Below, one piece after another: positions 7,644-15,117 of a DNA stretch of 15,117 nt. The stretch lies in the UHGV virus genome UHGV-1727645; one strand, written 5' to 3'. The notes beneath the pieces are model-generated. The model searched no databases. It saw only the letters and a list, made by a program, of their open reading frames with translations, and was not told the origin of the DNA. Position numbers and translations under genes: made by a program. The first letter of the stretch is position 1. The number at the start of each line of letters is the position of its first letter. Source of the DNA: a virus.

Positions 7644-8186
7644 ATGTACCAGCTAAAGATAACCATCCGAGACAGCAAACCACCTATATGGCGGCGTGTG
7701 CTGGTTCCAGAGCAAATCCCCTTTAGTAAACTTCATGCCGTGATCCAGTTAGCTTTTGGCTGGAATGACGAACACCTGTATATGTTCGAGAAAGGGCGTA
7801 AAGGTGATCCAGGTAGCGAGTATCGCGTATGGGGTGAGGATGAAAGCATGGGTAACGCGGCAATCACGCCACTATGGGCGGCGCTCCAGAATGAGGGTGA
7901 CAAGCTGGTTTACACGTATGACTTTGGCGACTGGTGGGATTGCGTCATTGTGCTGGAGAAGCAAACACACGATACGAGTAATCAGCCCATTAGCTGCCTG
8001 CGTGGGAAAGGCACCACCCCGGCGGAAAACTCAGGCGGCTTGCATGGTTACAATGAATTGCTATTACAGGCCAGAGAGTCTGATAATCCTGAGCAGGCCG
8101 AGATCCACAATTTCCTGATGCTGGATATTGAACGCCGGGTTTACGACCTGAGCCGCATCAACGACAGATTGCAGGCTATTAACTGA
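7644..8186 (+). CDS. pRiA4b ORF3-family protein (PF07929-like), 180 aa
   Basis: N-terminus YQLKITIRDSKPPIWRRVLVPEQIPFSKLHAVIQLAFGWNDEHLYMF and later YDFGDWWD match the characteristic pRiA4b ORF-3 motifs (Y-x-L-K, P-P-I-W-R-R, L-H-x-x-I-Q-x-A-x-G-W, H-L-x-x-F, YDFGD-W). SD CAGGA 5 nt upstream. Confidence 0.8.
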   Translation: MYQLKITIRDSKPPIWRRVLVPEQIPFSKLHAVIQLAFGWNDEHLYMFEKGRKGDPGSEYRVWGEDESMGNAAITPLWAALQNEGDKLVYTYDFGDWWDCVIVLEKQTHDTSNQPISCLRGKGTTPAENSGGLHGYNELLLQARESDNPEQAEIHNFLMLDIERRVYDLSRINDRLQAIN

Positions 8187-8538
8187 CCCGCATGTATTCA
8201 CCTGATATTGCGTTGTCAGCGCCGCCAGTATCGCGCATAACAGCGCACTGACCGGGTAAACCGTAGCGCACGACCGTTGCGTTAGTATCACCGCCACGCT
8301 TTACCTGCCGCGATTCATACACTGTCACCCGCTCAAGCAGTCCACCAGCAACCATGCTTTCCAGTGTGCGCCGGGTTGATTCGAGCTGGTGACGCTTATC
8401 GAACGACACCATGCCATGAAGCAGGTAGGCCACACCCGACACATCGAACGGCGGCGCACCAATCTCACCAGTCACCCATTCGAGGTTATCCGGTTCAAAG
8501 TAGCTAAGTATCTCTTTTTTGCGACTGGTCATTCTCAT
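8179..8538 (-). CDS. Hypothetical protein (119 aa), convergent with and overlapping the pRiA4b ORF3 gene by 8 bp
   Basis: Uninterrupted ORF with plausible composition and SD-like AAGGAA upstream; no motif recognised. Confidence 0.55.
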   Translation of the reverse strand: MRMTSRKKEILSYFEPDNLEWVTGEIGAPPFDVSGVAYLLHGMVSFDKRHQLESTRRTLESMVAGGLLERVTVYESRQVKRGGDTNATVVRYGLPGQCAVMRDTGGADNAISGEYMRVS

Positions 8539-9065
8539 GGCTGGCTGATTCCTTATTGTGGGATAGCACTATCATACAATAAGTGGGTTAAAGGGAGAGC
8601 GTTACCGCCTGATATGCTGTATGAATAACAACCAAATTTCAGGTGCGGAAAAAGATATGGGGGTACTTTTGGGGGTATCTATAAAAAATGAACAATAAAA
8701 AAGGCAACAAAAACAAAGCTTATCGCCTATGTGTATTGTTCCTATTATCGCACCATTTAAATCAATAAGTTAGATAAGTGTGTGCCTAGATTTTCTTGCA
8801 GTTTGTCATTTGGGTACACACAGGGGACACAAAGCACAAAAGTGTGTACATTTGGTTTTGGTGTCCTCGTGTTTACTTCTTACCGTTGATATAAATTCAC
8901 TTTCTTGTTGACAAAAATTGTAAGCATGTCGAATGGCAATGTAGACATCGCTATTAGTTGTTTGGTAAGGTATTTATTGAGTGTAAACATAAAAACTTTA
9001 TCAATATATGCTCAGACTGATGAGGTCAGTATTGATACTGATGTTTTCAAATTTTAGGCCATAAA

Positions 9066-9662
9066 ATGGCTGTCATTCCAATGTCTTACTCCCCTGCTAC
9101 TGTAGCTCGTCGTTTTTCGATACTGGATGGAGTAACTATTCAGGGTGTACTTTACCAGATCATCTGGGATCCAAAGACTCCGTTCGCTGCGGTAATCGAA
9201 GCTGCACCTTCTGTTATTGATGGTGATATTCGCCATAAGGTTGTTGCCACTCTGGAGCTTCAGCGTCGTTCACAGCTTGAAGGGGTGTTTGTCCGGAAAT
9301 TCTGGGAAGAACAGGACGTTGCTCAGATTGAAGGGATTGTTGTCGATGGTGCTGTACGTGATGTTAGCCTTGCTACGTTTGTTTATGAAACAATAGCCAC
9401 AAAAGCAGGCGTTATACTATTAAGTGATAACGAGCAATATGAAGGAGGTAAAGCCCTCTGGCAGCATATAGCGCGTCGTTCAACGAATCTTAAGGTGTTT
9501 ATCTTAGATACAGATTCCGCACGGTATTATCCGTTTGATGGTGATCGGATCTGCTATGATGGGGAAAGTATTCCTGAATCAGAAATCTGGAGTGAACATC
9601 CTGATCGAAACAAACACGGTGTTGTTCTTGTGGCCGAATCTGTTAATGGAAAAGCCGCATAA
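9066..9662 (+). CDS. Hypothetical protein (198 aa), function unknown
   Basis: Longest ORF in this interval, preceded by a 527-bp AT-rich intergenic region; weak SD; no motif recognised. Confidence 0.55.
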   Translation: MAVIPMSYSPATVARRFSILDGVTIQGVLYQIIWDPKTPFAAVIEAAPSVIDGDIRHKVVATLELQRRSQLEGVFVRKFWEEQDVAQIEGIVVDGAVRDVSLATFVYETIATKAGVILLSDNEQYEGGKALWQHIARRSTNLKVFILDTDSARYYPFDGDRICYDGESIPESEIWSEHPDRNKHGVVLVAESVNGKAA

Positions 9663-9721
9663 TTTGCCAGCCGCATCGTGTTCTTGGAACTCTGACAGAC
9701 CTGAGAGTTGGCAGAATAAAC

Positions 9722-9747
9722 AGGGGATAACAGAACGGTTATCCCCT
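9722..9747. terminator. Perfect 10-bp stem hairpin (AGGGGATAAC-agaacg-GTTATCCCCT) between convergent genes; likely bidirectional terminator
   Basis: Lies between the stop of the 198-aa gene (9662) and the stop of the minus-strand gene (9755); on the minus strand it is followed by GTTTATTCTG. Confidence 0.55.
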
Positions 9748-9754
9748 CAGTACT

Positions 9755-10807
9755 CTACTGCTCGATCAAACATTTGCTCCATAAAGGTTGGATCGCATGT
9801 CGATCTTTGCTGTAGGGGAATCTTTTATTTTTTTTCTTCTGTTCCATCAGTAATGTGTCGATTTCGTTGTTGACAATGCGCGTCACAGCGTGACGATAAC
9901 GGTTTAGCGATGTATCACTGATATCCTGAGGCAGGCATAAACTGGTATCGGTTTTGATGCGTTCATTTATGCCATCTTTAACTTTCCATTTCAGACCATC
10001 CGGAACCCCTTCCTGCAAATCATAGGCTTTCAGTCCCGCAAGTCGTACAACAACGTCAATCTTCTCTGTTCGTATTTTTTTATTACTTACCAACAAAACT
10101 TTATTAGTTTCATACCATTTTTCAAATGATTCCAGCCGTTTTACTGCATTTATGATGTTATTCCGAATTCCAGAAAATTCAATAGAATCTGTGTGTTTCA
10201 TTTTCTTTTCTTCAGCATTAGGGGCTATTCCTGGATAGTCAATATCATGCTTTACTGACTCCAGATATGCATATTGCAGGCAGCCTGAAAGATGAATTGC
10301 GGCATCCTGCAGAGTATTAGTGCGAATCAATCTAAGGAGTTCATCTCGTTGTATGGTTATCTGACAATAATCCCTTTCCCATGCGGTCGTATTCTCGGTT
10401 TTTTCATCTTTATCCGGAGTAACTGTTGCGAATTTCCATGTGTACTGGATGAAATCTGTTGGTTTAAAATACGCCATGCTTGTTTTTACCCAACCACAGA
10501 TTTCAGCTGCATAAATATGGACATAAATATTGTACATTGTCTGTATTTCACGCTGACTGGCGACTGAAAACATATTTTTTACGAATTCTGTACATCCGAT
10601 TATCGATAGTCGTTCTCTCAGTCTGTGCACATCTTCAGTATCTGACTTCCTGCAGTCCCAGGGCCATTTGTTCTTATTCTCAAAACAGGAAAGCCATTCT
10701 GGAATATTTTGCTTATTCTGGTAGAATTCGTTAACCGCCAGACCAATGGTTATGGCAAGTATTGTTGATTCATCTATTTCATGATACTGCTTCAGGTGTG
10801 CCAGCAA
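9755..10807 (-). CDS. Hypothetical Lys/Asn/Ile-rich protein; C-terminal 350 codons of a ~543-codon reading frame interrupted by one in-frame TAA (probable pseudogene or base-call error)
   Basis: ORF-track start is TTG 10807 with no SD; the frame is open upstream through 10808-11002 (65 codons, no stop, no start codon) to the TAA at 11003-11005 that ends the 127-aa ORF, which is in the same frame. Confidence 0.6.
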   Translation of the reverse strand: MLAHLKQYHEIDESTILAITIGLAVNEFYQNKQNIPEWLSCFENKNKWPWDCRKSDTEDVHRLRERLSIIGCTEFVKNMFSVASQREIQTMYNIYVHIYAAEICGWVKTSMAYFKPTDFIQYTWKFATVTPDKDEKTENTTAWERDYCQITIQRDELLRLIRTNTLQDAAIHLSGCLQYAYLESVKHDIDYPGIAPNAEEKKMKHTDSIEFSGIRNNIINAVKRLESFEKWYETNKVLLVSNKKIRTEKIDVVVRLAGLKAYDLQEGVPDGLKWKVKDGINERIKTDTSLCLPQDISDTSLNRYRHAVTRIVNNEIDTLLMEQKKKNKRFPYSKDRHAIQPLWSKCLIEQ

Positions 10808-11002
10808 CTCTGAGGTGCAGGAGTGCGCAACAGACAGATCCTGATGGCAATACCCCTGCCGGGCTTCTGCTGGAATTGGTGAACTCCAAGCTTTACATTC
10901 AGTCAGAATATTAAATAAATCATCTCCTACAAACTTTGCCAGTTCAGGTGTTTTCCAGGTTCTCGGTCCTGGGCTGATAAAGGTTGATGTTGTCTGTACC
11001 TC

Positions 11003-11386
11003 TTACATCGCCCCCCAGGTTTTCAGACTGATATTTCCTTCATCAAAACCATTGTATAAATGGCACATCACATTAAGCGCATCTGTAAGAGCAGAAGGAG
11101 TGGGTTGGGGGGAGGTAGACTCTTCAATAGTAAGCTTTGGTTCTTCAGCGCTTCTTTGTTCTCTAAAGATTCTCAGGAGCTCTGTATTGGCACGTAATGC
11201 AGAGAGTACTCTGTGCTGTTCTTCAAACCAGGGGCGATATTCTGGATCCTGATATAGTTGACGTGCTTTAAAAATGAGCAAAAGGATTTGTTCGGAAACC
11301 GCCTCGTATATGCCAGGGAAAGGGTGGAGTTCGCCGGATAAAACACGATCATACTGATACTTTTGTTGCATTGTCCGAGTTACCAT
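11003..11386 (-). CDS. N-terminal 127 codons of the same interrupted ~543-codon reading frame; function unknown
   Basis: Ends at TAA (plus 11003-11005), in frame with the downstream 350-codon ORF; upstream is a 690-bp AT-rich divergent intergenic region. Confidence 0.55.
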   Translation of the reverse strand: MVTRTMQQKYQYDRVLSGELHPFPGIYEAVSEQILLLIFKARQLYQDPEYRPWFEEQHRVLSALRANTELLRIFREQRSAEEPKLTIEESTSPQPTPSALTDALNVMCHLYNGFDEGNISLKTWGAM

Positions 11387-11689
11387 GATGTCAGAAGTTT
11401 CTGCTTGCTACATATTGGTCCGCTGTCAGACAGAATCGATGTTGTCCACTGAAATGAAACGTTAATCCTGAGCCAGCCGCTGATTACGTGGATAGCTTGT
11501 GTACATTTGTTTATATCCTGAGATTTTATACATTATTTACGATAATTTTCTCCTGATTGTGATTGTCTCCGTCAGTTACCTCTGCGTCTTCTGTATAAGC
11601 GTATTTGCTTCATTTTCCGATCATTCGTAGCCTGCTTCTGTCTGTTCAGCAACAGATTGTCTTTTCCTCCGCTTGTTGTAGCTTATTTT

Positions 11690-11705
11690 TGTGATGATTA
11701 TCACA
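11690..11705. promoter_or_regulatory. Perfect CRP-type consensus TGTGA-N6-TCACA (TGTGATGATTATCACA)
   Basis: Both half-sites match the cAMP receptor protein consensus exactly, with the canonical 6-bp spacer, flanked by AT-rich DNA, in the divergent intergenic region between the interrupted gene and the second alpA-like gene. Confidence 0.45.
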
Positions 11706-12076
11706 AATTAGATGGAAATATTTCACCTTCCTGCGACTCCTCCATGCTTTGTTTGAATTTTACATGGATTTATTTATATATCCCAACCTAATTTTAGTCA
11801 ACAAAAATCGTCATAATGGATTTTTAATATTAATTTTTGTTTTTATTGGTCGCGGCTTGTTTTTATTTGGTTCTATATGTCTTTATTTTTTCTATTAAAA
11901 GCCATTTTAACATTGCAATTCAGTATTTTGACCTATAAAAATCATAGTATTACATTTTATTTGTAAGGTGTTGACTGGATGAATGATAGTGACTTTCACT
12001 CATTGTTTATCCGGGAAACTTAGTCATTTCATGCTCATGCCGGAAATAAAAAGTATTGATATATCAGGAGGGTAGT

Positions 12077-12304
12077 ATGTGGCTTCCATTAACAGATGAA
12101 CAGCGTCTGGTCATTTTGAAAGCTTATGGGATTGAATGCGACAGACTGGTACGTGAAAAGGAACGATATGAGATCACGTCAATTTCTCGTACACAAGCGT
12201 GGAAACTTGAACGGGAGGGAACATTTCCACCACGTAAGTCTATCGGAAAGAAATCTTGCGGATGGTTGTTAAGTGACCTTCTCTGCTGGATACAGACCAG
12301 ATGA
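12077..12304 (+). CDS. AlpA-family regulator with about 30-aa N-terminal extension (75 aa from ATG 12077)
   Basis: C-terminal half ITSISRTQAWKLEREGTFPPRKSIGKKSCGWLLSDLLCWI fits the AlpA HTH pattern; SD AGGAGG 5 nt before ATG 12077 (ORF-track start TTG 12056 lies upstream of the SD). Confidence 0.7.
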   Translation: MWLPLTDEQRLVILKAYGIECDRLVREKERYEITSISRTQAWKLEREGTFPPRKSIGKKSCGWLLSDLLCWIQTR

Positions 12305-12334
12305 ACTGTCTGTATTTTCAGTATATCCAGTCTG

Positions 12335-12377
12335 TATAGCAGCTATTGTTGCTATTGTAGCGGAAATAGCTGCTATA
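12335..12377. promoter_or_regulatory. Inverted repeat TATAGCAGCTATT-(17 nt)-AATAGCTGCTATA in the leader of the YfjI-like gene fragment
   Basis: 13-bp perfect arms; a weaker AGCAGC...GCTGCT counterpart is seen at the equivalent position upstream of the full copy (about 12805-12850). Confidence 0.45.
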
Positions 12378-12409
12378 ACCGAAAGTTATTACGAAAAAAG
12401 GAAATATTT

Positions 12410-12637
12410 ATGTCTTACATCAAACCGGATACTCCGCATCCAGTATATGCGCAACCATCAATGACTGGAAATGCAATAATTGAAACTCAACACAATGAAA
12501 AAGCATCTCTGGCTATGACTACAACATCATTATTAACAGCGATGTCAATTGCCTGTCAGAATCAGATTGAGGTGTGCAACCCCGGAAATTTACGTGGGCC
12601 CGTTAATATTTACACTATGGTTCTGGCTGATTCCTGA
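12410..12637 (+). pseudogene. Truncated duplicate of the 5' end of the YfjI/DUF3987-like gene (75 codons)
   Basis: Product aligns by eye with the N-terminus of the 12886 gene (NAIIETQ..LAM..TS.LTA.SIACQNQI.VC.PGNLRGPVN.Y...LADS), then hits a stop where the full copy continues (GATTCCTGAGAAAGG versus GATTCTGGTGAAAGG). Confidence 0.6.
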
Positions 12638-12885
12638 GAAAGGTAAAAGACCGGGGGGAAGGTGTTAGTGAAATAATTTTAGGAGGTGTTAAGAATGAGA
12701 AACATGAATGATATTTCGTGGTAAATAACACAGTATGAACTGAATTAACCTTATCGGTTTATTAAACATCAGATCTACAGATATTCTGTATTTCTCAGAA
12801 CATTAGGTCTGAACAGCAGCTATTTCGCTATTATAGCGGGAGTTGCTGCTACTTTACTAACCCATTAATGAAAAGAGAGGCTTTT

Positions 12886-13890
12886 ATGTGCTTACTTGCA
12901 CCAGAAAATCCTTATCCGATATATGCACTACCACCGCTGGTGAGAAATGCAATAATTGAAACTCAAAAAAATACACAGGCACCTTTGGCTATGGTGGCGA
13001 CATCCGCATTAACAGCGATCTCAATTGCCTGTCAGAATCAGATTGACGTGTGCAGACCTGGAAATTTACGTGGGCCTGTTAATCTTTACTCTCTGATTCT
13101 GGCTGATTCTGGTGAAAGGAAAACGACCGTGGATAAAGTGTTTATGAAAGCATTTTATCTCAGCGATGAAGCCCTCGCGGAAGAATACGCGAAACTGGTT
13201 GAGAATTACAGCACAGAAAAGGCAATATGGGAGCAAAAACAAAAAGCGCTGGAATCAAAATTTCATAAAGAGATTCGTGCCGGTAAAGATTACAAGGCAA
13301 CAGAATCAGAGCTTGAAACGCATCTGAATAAGTCTCCTGTTCCGCCGCAGATACGTCGAACAATTTTTAATGAGACAACTATAGAGGGAATGTTAAAATA
13401 TTACTCCGATAGCAATCGTTCTTTTGCTCTTGTATCCAGTGAAGGGGGGGTAATTTTTGACAGCCGGGCCATGAGTAAACTGGGAATTATTAACACTTTG
13501 TGGGATGGAGGTTCTCTTTTCATCGACAGGAAATCATCTCCCGGAATTAATTTGAAGGAGCCAAGACTGACGATGTCGGCGATGATTCAGCCTGATGTTT
13601 ACCACAAAGGTTTTTGTACGCGAAAAAAAGAACTTGTGAAAACGTCAGGACATCATGCAAGGTTTTTGATGTGTCAACCAACATCAACGCAGGGGACAAG
13701 GATAATAACCGGAGATAATTATTCATCACAGTATCAGGATTTGTTTGAACAGAGGATCAATGAGCTTATTGATGAAAGTCTGGCGATGAGTGGTGAACGA
13801 CGTTGCCTTCACTTTTCTCCTCAGGCTGCCAGAATCTGGACGGATTATTACAATGATGTGGAATCGAGCTGGGGGGATTGGGGCCTTTAA
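12886..13890 (+). CDS. YfjI/DUF3987-like protein, N-terminal part (frameshifted gene); family name tentative
   Basis: Start set at ATG 12886 (SD AGAGAGG 5 nt upstream; matches the start of the duplicated fragment) rather than ORF-track ATG 12868. The gene follows an AlpA gene, as in CP4-57-type elements. Frame ends at TAA 13888-13890, just after a G6 run. Confidence 0.65.
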   Translation: MCLLAPENPYPIYALPPLVRNAIIETQKNTQAPLAMVATSALTAISIACQNQIDVCRPGNLRGPVNLYSLILADSGERKTTVDKVFMKAFYLSDEALAEEYAKLVENYSTEKAIWEQKQKALESKFHKEIRAGKDYKATESELETHLNKSPVPPQIRRTIFNETTIEGMLKYYSDSNRSFALVSSEGGVIFDSRAMSKLGIINTLWDGGSLFIDRKSSPGINLKEPRLTMSAMIQPDVYHKGFCTRKKELVKTSGHHARFLMCQPTSTQGTRIITGDNYSSQYQDLFEQRINELIDESLAMSGERRCLHFSPQAARIWTDYYNDVESSWGDWGL

Positions 13891-14318
13891 GACATTGCCG
13901 GGAATATGCTGCTAAAAATGCAGAGTATATGGCAAGACTGGCAGGACTTATTTACCATTCGAGCGGTGAGGAGGGGGAGATTTCCCCTTACATTGCAGAA
14001 ATGGCGAGAGAATTAGCAATATGGTACGGTAATGAGTATGTGCGGTTGTCTAATCCGTTAACTTTTGACAACCCTGCCCTGACCGTACCTGTGCGACTCA
14101 TTCCAGAGGAGCTTGAACTTTTCAACTGGATAAAAAGCTATTGCATTGAGAAGGGGATCCTCTGTATGAAAAAAAATGACATTTTACAGCGTGGTCCGAA
14201 CCGTTTCCGGAAAAAGGATAAAATCAACTGGTTACTGGATTTACTGTATGAACAAAACAGAGTTGTACCGGTTATTGAGGGAAAAACGTTGTGTGTCGCA
14301 CCTAACTTTGACCTCTGA
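13878..14318 (+). CDS. C-terminal part of the same YfjI/DUF3987-like gene in the +1 frame (146 codons)
   Basis: Overlaps the upstream ORF by 13 nt; one extra G in the G6 run at 13871-13876 would fuse both ORFs into one frame of about 486 codons. Confidence 0.6.
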   Translation: MGPLRHCREYAAKNAEYMARLAGLIYHSSGEEGEISPYIAEMARELAIWYGNEYVRLSNPLTFDNPALTVPVRLIPEELELFNWIKSYCIEKGILCMKKNDILQRGPNRFRKKDKINWLLDLLYEQNRVVPVIEGKTLCVAPNFDL

Positions 14319-14342
14319 ACAACTTAATCGTTGACTAACATA

Positions 14343-14373
14343 TAGTCTCCTCTGCTACTTGCGGAGGAGACTA
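14343..14373 (+). terminator. Hairpin TAGTCTCCTC-(11 nt)-GAGGAGACTA about 25 nt after the YfjI-like stop
   Basis: 10-bp perfect stem; no clear U-tract, so the terminator assignment is tentative. Confidence 0.4.
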
Positions 14374-14579
14374 ATGCCTTTACCATGTCAGCGTTGTATT
14401 AGAAAACTCTGGTACAGGTCAGTCAGTAAATATAACTGGTGTAACCACTATTTACTATTGGATATCCTGTTGCTCAGGATATTGTCGGCTTTAGTCTGAG
14501 GTGAGGTGGGGCCTTCATTGTTTTCGTGTTCAATAAATAATTTAGGTTAATTAGTATTATTAATGGGAGTTATGGTATT

Positions 14580-14669
14580 GTGTGGTGGTATCTGTGGTAT
14601 AACTTATCTCTTTTTATCGTAATGTCTCCCCATATACTAACTACAGTGTGGTGGTGTATGTGGTGTAAA
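14580..14669 (+). repeat. Two imperfect direct repeats GTGTGGTGGTATCTGTGGTATAA / GTGTGGTGGTGTATGTGGTGTAAA (14580-14602, 14646-14669)
   Basis: About 20 of 23 positions identical, each followed by a related ..CGTAAT.. segment; in AT-rich non-coding DNA. Confidence 0.6.
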
Positions 14670-15043
14670 TTATGTTACTACACTCATAGCGTAATATTGA
14701 GAAAATTAATCCATAGAATGTATGTCTGGTTCGTATTTAACACTGGTTAGGTACCAGAACTCTATTAGAGTGTAGTGTCTTTAGTTCGTACGTCATAGCT
14801 CCGTTACAGTTTATAAGTATGGGTAAATATAATTTTTTCTGTATGGAATAATCTTCTTATGGTGTGTGGGGTATCAATAGCGGTGTTGCCTGTGGCTATT
14901 CGATAGCTGACTTTTGTGAAGATCAGATTACTTCCTGTAAGTGATTGAATGGTACTTCCTTAAACTTAATTCTATGAGGTGTGTTTTTGCCATTGTAATT
15001 CTTACTAGTCCTCTGTTTAAGAGAGCCTCACTGTATTCTGAAG

Positions 15044-15069
15044 TATTACCTCATTGTAATGAGGTAATA
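15044..15069. repeat. 26-bp palindrome TATTACCTCATT-GT-AATGAGGTAATA
   Basis: 12-bp perfect inverted arms with 2-bp centre, read directly. Confidence 0.6.
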
Positions 15070-15117
15070 CAAAACAGTTTTATCAGGGTGTCTGTGCTGC
15101 TGGTTTACTTCGTTTAT

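What the first reader, a model, noticed from the sequence alone, without database searches (positions are those of the whole stretch)
9755..11386. One in-frame TAA splits a single ~543-codon gene into two apparent ORFs
On the minus strand the 127-codon ORF ends at TAA (plus 11003-11005) and the 350-codon ORF called from TTG 10807 is in the same frame. I translated the 65 intervening codons (plus 10808-11002) and found no stop and no ATG/GTG/TTG, and there is no Shine-Dalgarno before the TTG. This is therefore one gene with a single nonsense codon (recent inactivation) or a sequencing error, not two genes. Recent inactivation would fit a costly or toxic product.
Basis: seen in the sequence. Interest (0 to 1): 0.65.

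Follow-up and report, generated by a model that had tools for sequence, protein, structure and literature searches.

The report
Recent nonsense mutation in island gene
A single C-to-T change has turned a glutamine codon into a stop codon in a 543-codon E. coli island gene of unknown function; it is a real, recent and clone-specific pseudogene, which is an ordinary event.

Summary
On the minus strand, 9755-11386 is one 543-codon reading frame interrupted only by TAA at 11003-11005 (codon 128). The closest complete genome (E. coli strain 205) has an intact 543-aa gene that differs at 3 of 1632 bases: two synonymous changes and CAA(Gln128) to TAA. All intact E. coli alleles examined have Gln there. 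Every full-length homolog (Escherichia, Serratia, Vibrio, Aeromonas, Proteus, Klebsiella and others) is a single chain of about 490-560 aa.

The TAA is not a sequencing error. Four independent metagenome contigs carry the same allele, 100% identical across the gene and in the same prophage-plus-island context. It is absent from 286 complete E. coli genomes that hold the site, so it belongs to one clone and is recent, with no further lesions.

The protein belongs to a small orphan family. It has no Pfam, NCBIfam, PADLOC or PHROG match, and a confident AlphaFold model has no structural neighbour. It sits in the variable slot next to int/alpA of a CP4-57-like island at thrW.

Near-identical alleles elsewhere carry other independent knockouts (two nonsense codons, one frameshift, two IS1 insertions, one other 5' truncation). 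About 97% of recorded copies are intact and dN/dS is below 1, so "costly or toxic" is neither shown nor excluded. Verdict: an ordinary pseudogene of low interest.

The parts
9755..11386 (-). Whole disrupted gene: 543 codons (ATG 11386 to terminal TAG 9755-9757). It is the ortholog of the intact 543-aa hypothetical protein WP_001697685.1.
   Evidence: Translation. 3-nt difference from the strain 205 gene. Family alignment.
11003..11005 (-). Premature stop TAA at codon 128. It is CAA (Gln) in every intact E. coli allele examined. The change is C to T on the coding strand, which is G to A at + strand position 11005.
   Evidence: 0 of 286 complete genomes match the 61-mer exactly.
11003..11386 (-). 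5' fragment, 127 codons plus stop. It would encode the N-terminal helical region, which holds the family's most conserved block (SEQxLLLxxKARxL, WF.EQH).
   Evidence: The same product is called on 6 contigs.
9755..11002 (-). 3' remainder, 415 sense codons, no longer reached by ribosomes that start at the native ATG. It contains the 'apparent' ORFs from TTG 10807 (350 aa) and from ATG 10573 (272 aa, the one called by gene finders on the metagenome contigs).
9722..9747 (-). Terminator-like GC-rich hairpin followed by a T-run, 8 nt after the gene's stop. This is consistent with one transcription unit for the whole 543-codon gene.
   Evidence: consensus scan only.
11387..12076 (.). 690-bp AT-rich (about 34% GC) intergenic region between the gene's ATG and the divergent alpA-like gene. 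It is presumed to be the promoter/regulatory region.
   Evidence: No Rfam match.
12077..12304 (+). AlpA-family helix-turn-helix gene (75 aa), divergent from the disrupted gene.
   Evidence: PGAP annotation of the orthologous position in L001. PF05930 on the same gene in L006. Translation. Weak similarity to K-12 AlpA.
9066..9662 (+). Convergent 198-aa neighbour of unknown function (phrog_7522). It is always next to the gene in Escherichia but not in other genera.
12886..14318 (+). YfjI-family (DUF3987) gene of the same island, split into two pieces by a 1-bp deletion at 13866. It is a second lesion in the island.

Best explanation
Window 9755-11386 (- strand) is a single accessory gene of a CP4-57-like genomic island at thrW. 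It normally encodes a 543-aa, mostly alpha-helical protein of an uncharacterised orphan family. In the E. coli clone sampled here, one G:C to A:T transition changed codon 128 from CAA (Gln) to TAA. Translation from the native ATG now stops after 127 residues, just before a flexible linker. The remaining 415 codons are not translated, because there is no in-frame start for 65 codons and no ribosome-binding site. By inference they are also under-transcribed through Rho-dependent polarity. The gene is therefore a recent loss-of-function pseudogene in one clone. Shown here: one gene, the exact mutation, that the allele is real, its restriction to one clone, and the absence of further decay. Inferred: loss of function of the truncated product, polarity, and that the loss is neutral decay of a degenerating island rather than selected.
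For: One internal stop in an otherwise open 543-codon frame. Strain 205 has an intact 1632-nt CDS differing at 3 nt, namely CCT/CCA (synonymous), TAA/CAA and GAA/GAG (synonymous). Intact single CDSs were found in all 7 complete genomes inspected, across identity bands 83-99.8%, and in 15 of 15 full-length metagenome loci, all with Gln at the site. There are 41 homolog clusters: the full-length ones are 500-561 aa and one is a 405-aa fragment on a short contig. An exhaustive HMMER search gives one full-length matched stretch per full-length hit. Conserved blocks lie on both sides of the stop. dN/dS is 0.25-0.5 for both halves between intact alleles. The identical TAA allele (100% over the gene) is on four independent metagenome contigs with the same prophage and island context. 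None of 286 complete E. coli genomes holding the 61-mer has TAA. The intact exact allele is on 529 contigs, against 6 for the 127-aa product. In the AF2 model (pLDDT 84, pTM 0.86) the stop lies just before the disordered linker at residues 130-141. The island is decaying in other ways too: YfjI frameshift, DUF3987 remnant, no integrase at the thrW copies.
Against: The reads behind this particular window cannot be inspected, so confirmation comes from other assemblies of what looks like the same clone. Some of those metagenome assemblies may derive from the same cohort or even the same sample. No expression data exist, so low-level re-initiation downstream, or an independent role for the 127-aa fragment, cannot be excluded. 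The function of the intact protein is unknown, so 'loss of function' has no phenotype attached to it.
Confidence: 0.9

Rival explanations
1. Adaptive loss: the intact protein is costly or toxic (for example an auto-immune defence or abortive-infection factor), and the TAA was selected because it removes that cost.
For: Alleles at least 99.8% identical to the window's carry other independent knockouts: W144 TGG to TAG (L028), W231 TGG to TGA (L027), a 1-bp deletion in codon 140 (L022), IS1 insertions after gene positions 605 and 684 (L023, L024), and a junction with foreign DNA (IS3-like by my recollection of the IS3 end) near position 541 (L026). There is also an IS1 38 bp upstream of the ATG in the complete genome DETEC-P351. 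The gene sits in an integrase-proximal cargo slot of mobile islands. In related element families such accessory regions often hold immune systems (PMC9122126; bioRxiv 10.64898/2026.01.12.698999).
Against: The knockouts were found by looking up the 272-aa product, which exists only when the gene is broken, so the sample is biased. They amount to 18 contigs against 529 for the exact intact allele, about 3%. Samples not selected for disruption were all intact, 15 of 15 and 7 of 7. dN/dS is below 1, and the family is conserved across genera down to 30-33% identity. There is no PADLOC hit. The DNA is AT-rich, which from general knowledge is a preferred IS1 target. Neighbouring island genes are also decaying. 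No control gene was measured.
Confidence: 0.12
2. Sequencing or assembly error: the true sequence is CAA and the gene is intact.
For: It is a single-base difference from the closest complete genome. The allele is absent from 5,426 complete E. coli genomes. The window also has an unconfirmed 1-bp deletion in YfjI.
Against: Four contigs from independent metagenome assemblies carry exactly TAA, with the gene 100% identical to the window, including its two private synonymous changes. A substitution outside any homopolymer run is not a typical systematic error.
Confidence: 0.03
3. Two genuine genes, or a functional split: a 127-aa protein and a separately initiated C-terminal protein that work as two subunits.
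For: The stop falls at a domain boundary, just before a low-confidence linker. Gene finders call a 272-aa ORF downstream.
Against: No homolog is split at this point. All full-length relatives are single chains. There is no in-frame start for 65 codons and no ribosome-binding site before TTG 10807 or ATG 10573. The split is confined to one clone and derives from CAA. The model's pTM of 0.86 indicates one compact body.
Confidence: 0.03
4. The stop is decoded, by programmed readthrough or by an ochre-suppressor tRNA that inserts Gln, so that full-length protein is still made.
For: The ancestral residue is Gln, which is what known glutamine-inserting ochre suppressors would restore (general knowledge). 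Nothing in the data supports this directly.
Against: The stop is not conserved in any relative. No tRNA gene lies in the window and there is no Rfam element. From general knowledge, UAA followed by G is an efficient terminator context in E. coli, and natural isolates rarely carry ochre suppressors.
Confidence: 0.01

Closest known systems
Ordinary bacterial pseudogene caused by a premature stop (the class that NCBI PGAP flags as 'internal stop')
   Same: A single base substitution converts a sense codon into a stop in a gene that is intact in close relatives. There is no other lesion, and it lies in horizontally acquired, decaying island DNA.
   Different: Nothing essential. The only particular feature is that the affected gene belongs to an uncharacterised orphan family.
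CP4-57 cryptic element of E. coli K-12 (intA - yfjH - alpA - yfjI - yfjJ)
   Same: The backbone and gene order are the same: a leftward cargo gene next to a divergent alpA-like HTH gene, followed by a DUF3987/YfjI gene (42% identity to K-12 YfjI). Strain 205 has a YagK/YfjJ-domain gene further on, and copies at nfeF have a tyrosine integrase just upstream.
   Different: The gene in the yfjH slot is unrelated to YfjH (hhalign probability 0.15%). The thrW copies lack an adjacent integrase. The insertion site is thrW or nfeF rather than ssrA.
Defence and cargo hotspots of P4-like satellites, PICIs and PIMEs
   Same: It is a variable, integrase-proximal accessory gene of int/alpA-bearing mobile islands. 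It is sporadically distributed across genera, AT-rich, and has mosaic alleles.
   Different: No component matches any PADLOC model. No defence phenotype is known. Pseudogenes of recognisable defence genes were reported to be rare in P4 and P2 hotspots (PMC13586616). The resemblance is one of position only.

Membership tests
Pseudogene by premature stop codon | Close orthologs encode one uninterrupted protein spanning both fragments | tested here: met
   Strain 205 has a 543-aa CDS at 99.8% nt identity. 7 of 7 complete genomes and 15 of 15 metagenome loci are intact.
Pseudogene by premature stop codon | The stop replaces a sense codon at an aligned position | tested here: met
   CAA(Gln128) to TAA. 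Gln is present in all intact E. coli alleles examined.
Pseudogene by premature stop codon | The lesion is real and not a sequencing artefact | tested here: met
   The identical TAA allele is in four independent assemblies. The window's own reads are not available.
Pseudogene by premature stop codon | No full-length or compensating product is made | not testable with these tools
   This needs proteomics or ribosome profiling. The sequence shows no start or ribosome-binding site downstream.
Naturally split (two-gene) architecture | Homologs are consistently encoded as two ORFs, with an independent start for the second | tested here: not met
   All full-length homologs are single chains of 492-561 aa. 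There is no in-frame start for 65 codons.
Programmed stop-codon readthrough / recoding | The in-frame stop is conserved among relatives | tested here: not met
   The stop is found in one clone only. All relatives have a sense codon.
CP4-57-like int/alpA/yfjI island | An AlpA-family regulator and a DUF3987 (YfjI) gene downstream of the cargo slot | tested here: met
   PF05930 on the orthologous gene. DUF3987 at 4e-71. 42% identity to K-12 YfjI.
CP4-57-like int/alpA/yfjI island | A tyrosine integrase adjacent to a tRNA or other attachment site | tested here: inconclusive
   An integrase is present in the copies at nfeF. It is absent between thrW and the cargo in the thrW copies and in the window, where a P22-like prophage abuts the thrW fragment.
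Known anti-phage defence systems | A match to a model of a described defence protein | tested here: not met
   No PADLOC hit for the 543-aa protein or its neighbours. No Pfam, NCBIfam or PHROG hit for the 543-aa protein.

The most novel reading that the evidence does not exclude
The 543-aa protein is the founding member of an undescribed single-gene function carried in the integrase-proximal cargo slot of mobile islands, for example a new anti-phage or inter-element competition factor with a novel fold. Its activity carries a cost, so it is repeatedly knocked out (nonsense, frameshift, IS1). The TAA here would be one of those selected losses.
Probability: 0.12. Interest if true: 0.5.

Novelty: new member of a known kind. 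Interest (0 to 1): 0.15.

Why it matters
In itself it matters little. It is a correctly spotted pseudogene that an annotation pipeline should flag as one gene with an internal stop rather than two hypothetical proteins. The modest extra value lies in the gene. It belongs to a rare, uncharacterised, apparently novel-fold family of island cargo genes in Gammaproteobacteria, with mosaic alleles and several independent natural knockouts. That makes it a reasonable candidate for anyone screening int/alpA islands for new functions, and the natural CAA/TAA allele pair offers a near-isogenic comparison.

Tried and rejected
- **Function by sequence:** Pfam, NCBIfam, PADLOC and PHROGs gave no hit for the 543-aa protein. 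Scanning all 38 family members against Pfam at E<=1 gave only scattered noise; the most frequent hit was Arg_decarb_HB in 9 of 38, best E 0.005. A profile search against PDB sequences gave nothing below E=0.3.
- **Remote homologs:** an exhaustive HMMER search of 1.84 billion representatives returned only 42 proteins, all of this same family or fragments of it apart from one marginal hit.
- **Conserved partner gene:** the upstream divergent small genes fall into at least three unrelated types across genera and are absent in E. coli. The 198-aa neighbour is specific to Escherichia.
- **Relation to K-12 YfjH (same slot):** none.
- **ncRNA or tRNA in the window:** none.
- **L010 and L011 as extra TAA carriers:** rejected. 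They end in C/CA at the site, so their 127-aa products are contig-end artefacts.
- **YfjI frameshift shared with L022, which would have dated it before the TAA:** rejected. L022 has a different deletion 16 nt away.
- **Literature:** no paper in the library mentions the protein accessions.

Full report
**1. The observation.** Reading window 9600-11600 on the minus strand and translating 9755-11386 gives 544 codons with exactly one internal stop, at codon 128, plus the terminal stop. The internal stop is TAA at + strand 11003-11005. The mechanical ORF list shows 11003..11386 (-), 127 aa from ATG, and 9755..10807 (-), 350 aa from TTG, in the same frame. That list starts an ORF at the first ATG/GTG/TTG after a stop, so the 65 intervening codons have no in-frame start, and one search shows they have no stop. 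The 20 nt before the TTG contain no Shine-Dalgarno-like motif. The native ATG lacks an obvious one too, so this point carries little weight.

**2. Where the window comes from.** The window is Escherichia coli. Positions 1 to about 8770 match the right end of a P22-like prophage at 99.9% in many genomes. It carries an injectosome translocase, an SLT/gp16 ejection protein, PerC and PRiA4_ORF3. Positions 8740-15117 match, at 99.6%, the island that follows tRNA-Thr (thrW, downstream of proA) in E. coli strain 205. The alignment starts inside the last 17 nt of that tRNA, and ARAGORN finds no complete tRNA in the window. The prophage therefore sits in thrW, directly followed by the island.

The island has the backbone of K-12's CP4-57. 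A leftward cargo gene faces a divergent AlpA-family gene (window 12077-12304). Then comes a DUF3987 remnant (12410-12637) and a YfjI-family gene (12886-14318) that is 42% identical to K-12 YfjI. The gene under study occupies the slot of yfjH but is unrelated to it (hhalign probability 0.15%).

**3. One gene, and the exact mutation.** The 2-kb region occurs in 440 of 5,426 complete E. coli genomes, in identity bands from 83% to 99.8%. In all seven genomes I opened, which together span those bands, PGAP annotates a single CDS of 537-545 aa at this position.

The closest one (strain 205, WP_001697685.1, 543 aa) differs from the window at three of 1632 bases:

| Codon | Window | Strain 205 | Effect |
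|---|---|---|---|
| 22 | CCT | CCA | synonymous |
| 128 | TAA | CAA | Gln to stop |
| 295 | GAA | GAG | synonymous |

The lesion is thus a single C to T transition on the coding strand (G to A at + 11005).

A database search found 41 homolog clusters in Escherichia, Serratia, Vibrio, Dickeya, Proteus, Pectobacterium, Klebsiella, Aeromonas, Providencia and Atlantibacter, down to 33% identity. The full-length ones are 500-561 aa (one cluster is a 405-aa fragment on a short contig), and none has a Pfam domain. In the alignment, conserved blocks lie on both sides of the stop: W124 is invariant and M127 nearly so just before it, and the F..DLF.IL and R.GY.H..L..A.S blocks follow it. An exhaustive HMMER search of 1.84 billion representatives found only 42 proteins. 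Every full-length one (492-548 aa) matched the profile in one end-to-end stretch, and the rest are short fragments. Between intact E. coli alleles, dN/dS is 0.25-0.5 for the part before the stop and for the part after it. Both parts are therefore under purifying selection as coding sequence.

**4. Real mutation or error?** No complete E. coli genome carries the TAA. All 286 that hold the 61-mer centred on the site differ from it by at least one base. However, an exact-product look-up of the 127-aa fragment found contigs from independent metagenome assemblies (ENA ERZ28620926, ERZ1304695, ERZ917471, ERZ27262056). Four of these (L006-L009) carry TAA followed by the same downstream sequence. The gene in these contigs is 100% identical to the window over its whole recovered length, including the two private synonymous changes. 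The surrounding prophage-plus-island context is the same, apart from two short patches of clustered substitutions.

Two further hits (L010, L011) end in C or CA at the site. They are contig-end artefacts, not TAA carriers. The allele is therefore real and heritable, and it marks one clone that has been sequenced several times. Two of the assemblies may come from the same cohort, so I count them as at least three independent data sets, not four biological samples. In the protein collection, the intact exact allele is recorded on 529 contigs and the 127-aa product on 6.

**5. How recent?** There is no second lesion and no non-synonymous change relative to the closest intact allele, and there is no variation among the TAA carriers. 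The inactivation is therefore very recent on the scale of sequence divergence.

**6. Consequence (inferred).** An AlphaFold2 model of the 94%-identical representative, built from the 38-sequence family alignment, is confident (pLDDT 84, pTM 0.86) and mostly helical. The stop falls just before a low-confidence linker at residues 130-141. The truncated product would keep only the first six helices of what the model predicts to be one compact body, so loss of function is the likely result. A terminator-like hairpin lies 8 nt after the normal stop (9747-9722), which suggests one transcription unit. With about 1.25 kb of untranslated mRNA, Rho-dependent polarity is to be expected from general knowledge, but it was not tested.

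**7. What the gene is.** It remains of unknown function:

- There is no Pfam, NCBIfam, PADLOC or PHROG match.
- There is no sequence relative among PDB chains.
- The gene is rare, found in 9 loci among 185,579 species-representative genomes.
- It lies in mobile contexts. In Vibrio parahaemolyticus it sits between an integrase and alpA/repA/trbL. In Aeromonas it is next to an integrase, in an island that also carries a pyocin-S/CdiI pair. In Escherichia it lies between the 198-aa ORF and alpA, with an integrase upstream in the nfeF copies.
- In Atlantibacter no integrase is nearby.
- It has no constant partner. The divergent upstream small gene is an acidic protein of about 140 aa in some genera, a Gly/Ala-rich protein of about 110 aa in others, and absent in E. 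coli.
- E. coli alleles are mosaics. L003 has the N-terminal part of strain 205 but a C-terminal part with dN of 0.20.
- The gene is 40-45% GC and its upstream region is 34% GC.

These traits fit accessory cargo of integrative elements. In P4-like satellites and PIMEs such accessory regions often hold immune systems (PMC9122126; bioRxiv 10.64898/2026.01.12.698999). That is a positional analogy only.

**8. Is the loss selected ('costly or toxic product')?** Looking up the 272-aa downstream product returned 18 contigs. Besides the TAA clone, alleles at least 99.8% identical carry other, independent lesions:

| Locus | Source | Lesion |
|---|---|---|
| L028 | ERR4635643 | W144, TGG to TAG |
| L027 | SRR25281242 | W231, TGG to TGA |
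| L022 | GCA_037023105.1 | 1-bp deletion in codon 140 |
| L023 | GCA_958330615.1 | IS1 insertion after gene position 605 |
| L024 | GCA_002519095.1 | IS1 insertion after gene position 684 |
| L026 | ERZ27277035 | junction with foreign DNA near position 541 (resembles an IS3 end, from memory; not verified) |

A more divergent allele (L025) has two frameshifts, but it comes from an assembly whose integrase is also fragmented, so I do not count it. The complete genome DETEC-P351 has an IS1 38 bp upstream of the ATG.

This shows recurrent loss, but three points limit the inference:

- That look-up can only find broken genes.
- 18 contigs against 529 is about 3%, and I measured no control gene.
- Samples not selected for disruption were all intact: 15 of 15 full-length metagenome loci and 7 of 7 complete genomes.

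Other genes of the island decay as well. YfjI is frameshifted in the window and, independently, in L022, and the 198-aa gene is a pseudogene in DETEC-P351. From general knowledge, AT-rich DNA is a preferred IS1 target.

**9. Rivals.**

- Sequencing error is largely excluded by the independent assemblies.
- A natural two-gene split is contradicted by every homolog.
- Programmed readthrough is contradicted by the stop being confined to one clone.
- An ochre suppressor cannot be excluded, but nothing supports it.

**10. Verdict.** This is one gene with a single, real, recent nonsense mutation. It is an ordinary pseudogene in a decaying island, so interest is low. The residual interest lies in the orphan, apparently novel-fold cargo gene family and in its several natural knockouts.

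Noticed in passing
window 12886-14318 (deletion at 13866): The YfjI-family (DUF3987) gene of the same island is split by a 1-bp deletion (GAAG to GAG) relative to strain 205. I could not confirm this deletion in any other assembly. L022 has a different frameshift 16 nt downstream in a G6 run. L008 has an intact gene but an 11-substitution patch at 13867-13901.
   Followed up: partly
window 8296-8308: Five substitutions within 13 bp, inside the 119-aa ORF at 8179-8538, separate the window from three otherwise identical metagenome contigs (L006, L007, L009). It looks like a short gene-conversion tract and is unexplained.
   Followed up: partly
window ~8740-8772: This is the junction of a P22-like prophage right end with the last 17 nt of tRNA-Thr (thrW), directly followed by an integrase-less CP4-57-like island. 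thrW is therefore occupied in tandem. No complete E. coli genome in the collection has both parts contiguous as in the window.
   Followed up: partly
window 9755-11386 and L001-L005: E. coli alleles of the gene are recombinant mosaics. L003 shares the N-terminal part with strain 205 (0 differences), but its C-terminal part has dN 0.20 and dS 0.43. The switch lies near codon 205.
   Followed up: partly
[not shown]
   Followed up: yes
L012 6246-6656, L013 6203-6652, L047 5179-5640; L015 6346-6669, L048 5314-5667, L054 5262-5603: In other genera a small divergent gene lies about 300 bp upstream of the homolog. It is either an acidic protein of about 140 aa (Vibrio, Aeromonas, Siccibacter, about 70% identical to each other) or a Gly/Ala-rich protein of about 110 aa (Atlantibacter, Citrobacter, Photobacterium), the latter followed in Atlantibacter and Photobacterium by a protein of about 90 aa. 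Neither type is present in E. coli.
   Followed up: partly
L019 4288-5022 (NZ_CP116159.1, strain DETEC-P351): An IS1 sits 38 bp upstream of the intact gene's ATG. The 198-aa neighbour there is a pseudogene, and the rest of the island is replaced by IS and reverse-transcriptase remnants next to an Hhe anti-phage gene.
   Followed up: no
window 11387-12076: A 690-bp intergenic region of only about 34% GC lies between the gene and the divergent alpA. It has no Rfam match and no convincing ORF, and is possibly an H-NS-type silenced regulatory region.
   Followed up: no
window 12410-12637 and 12785-13157: A 75-aa DUF3987 N-terminal remnant precedes the YfjI gene. Window 12785-13157, around the start of the YfjI gene, matches the remnant region of strain 205 (L001 12710-13082) at 77% identity, so the remnant looks like a partial duplicate of the 5' end of YfjI. 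PGAP annotates it as a pseudogene in relatives.
   Followed up: no
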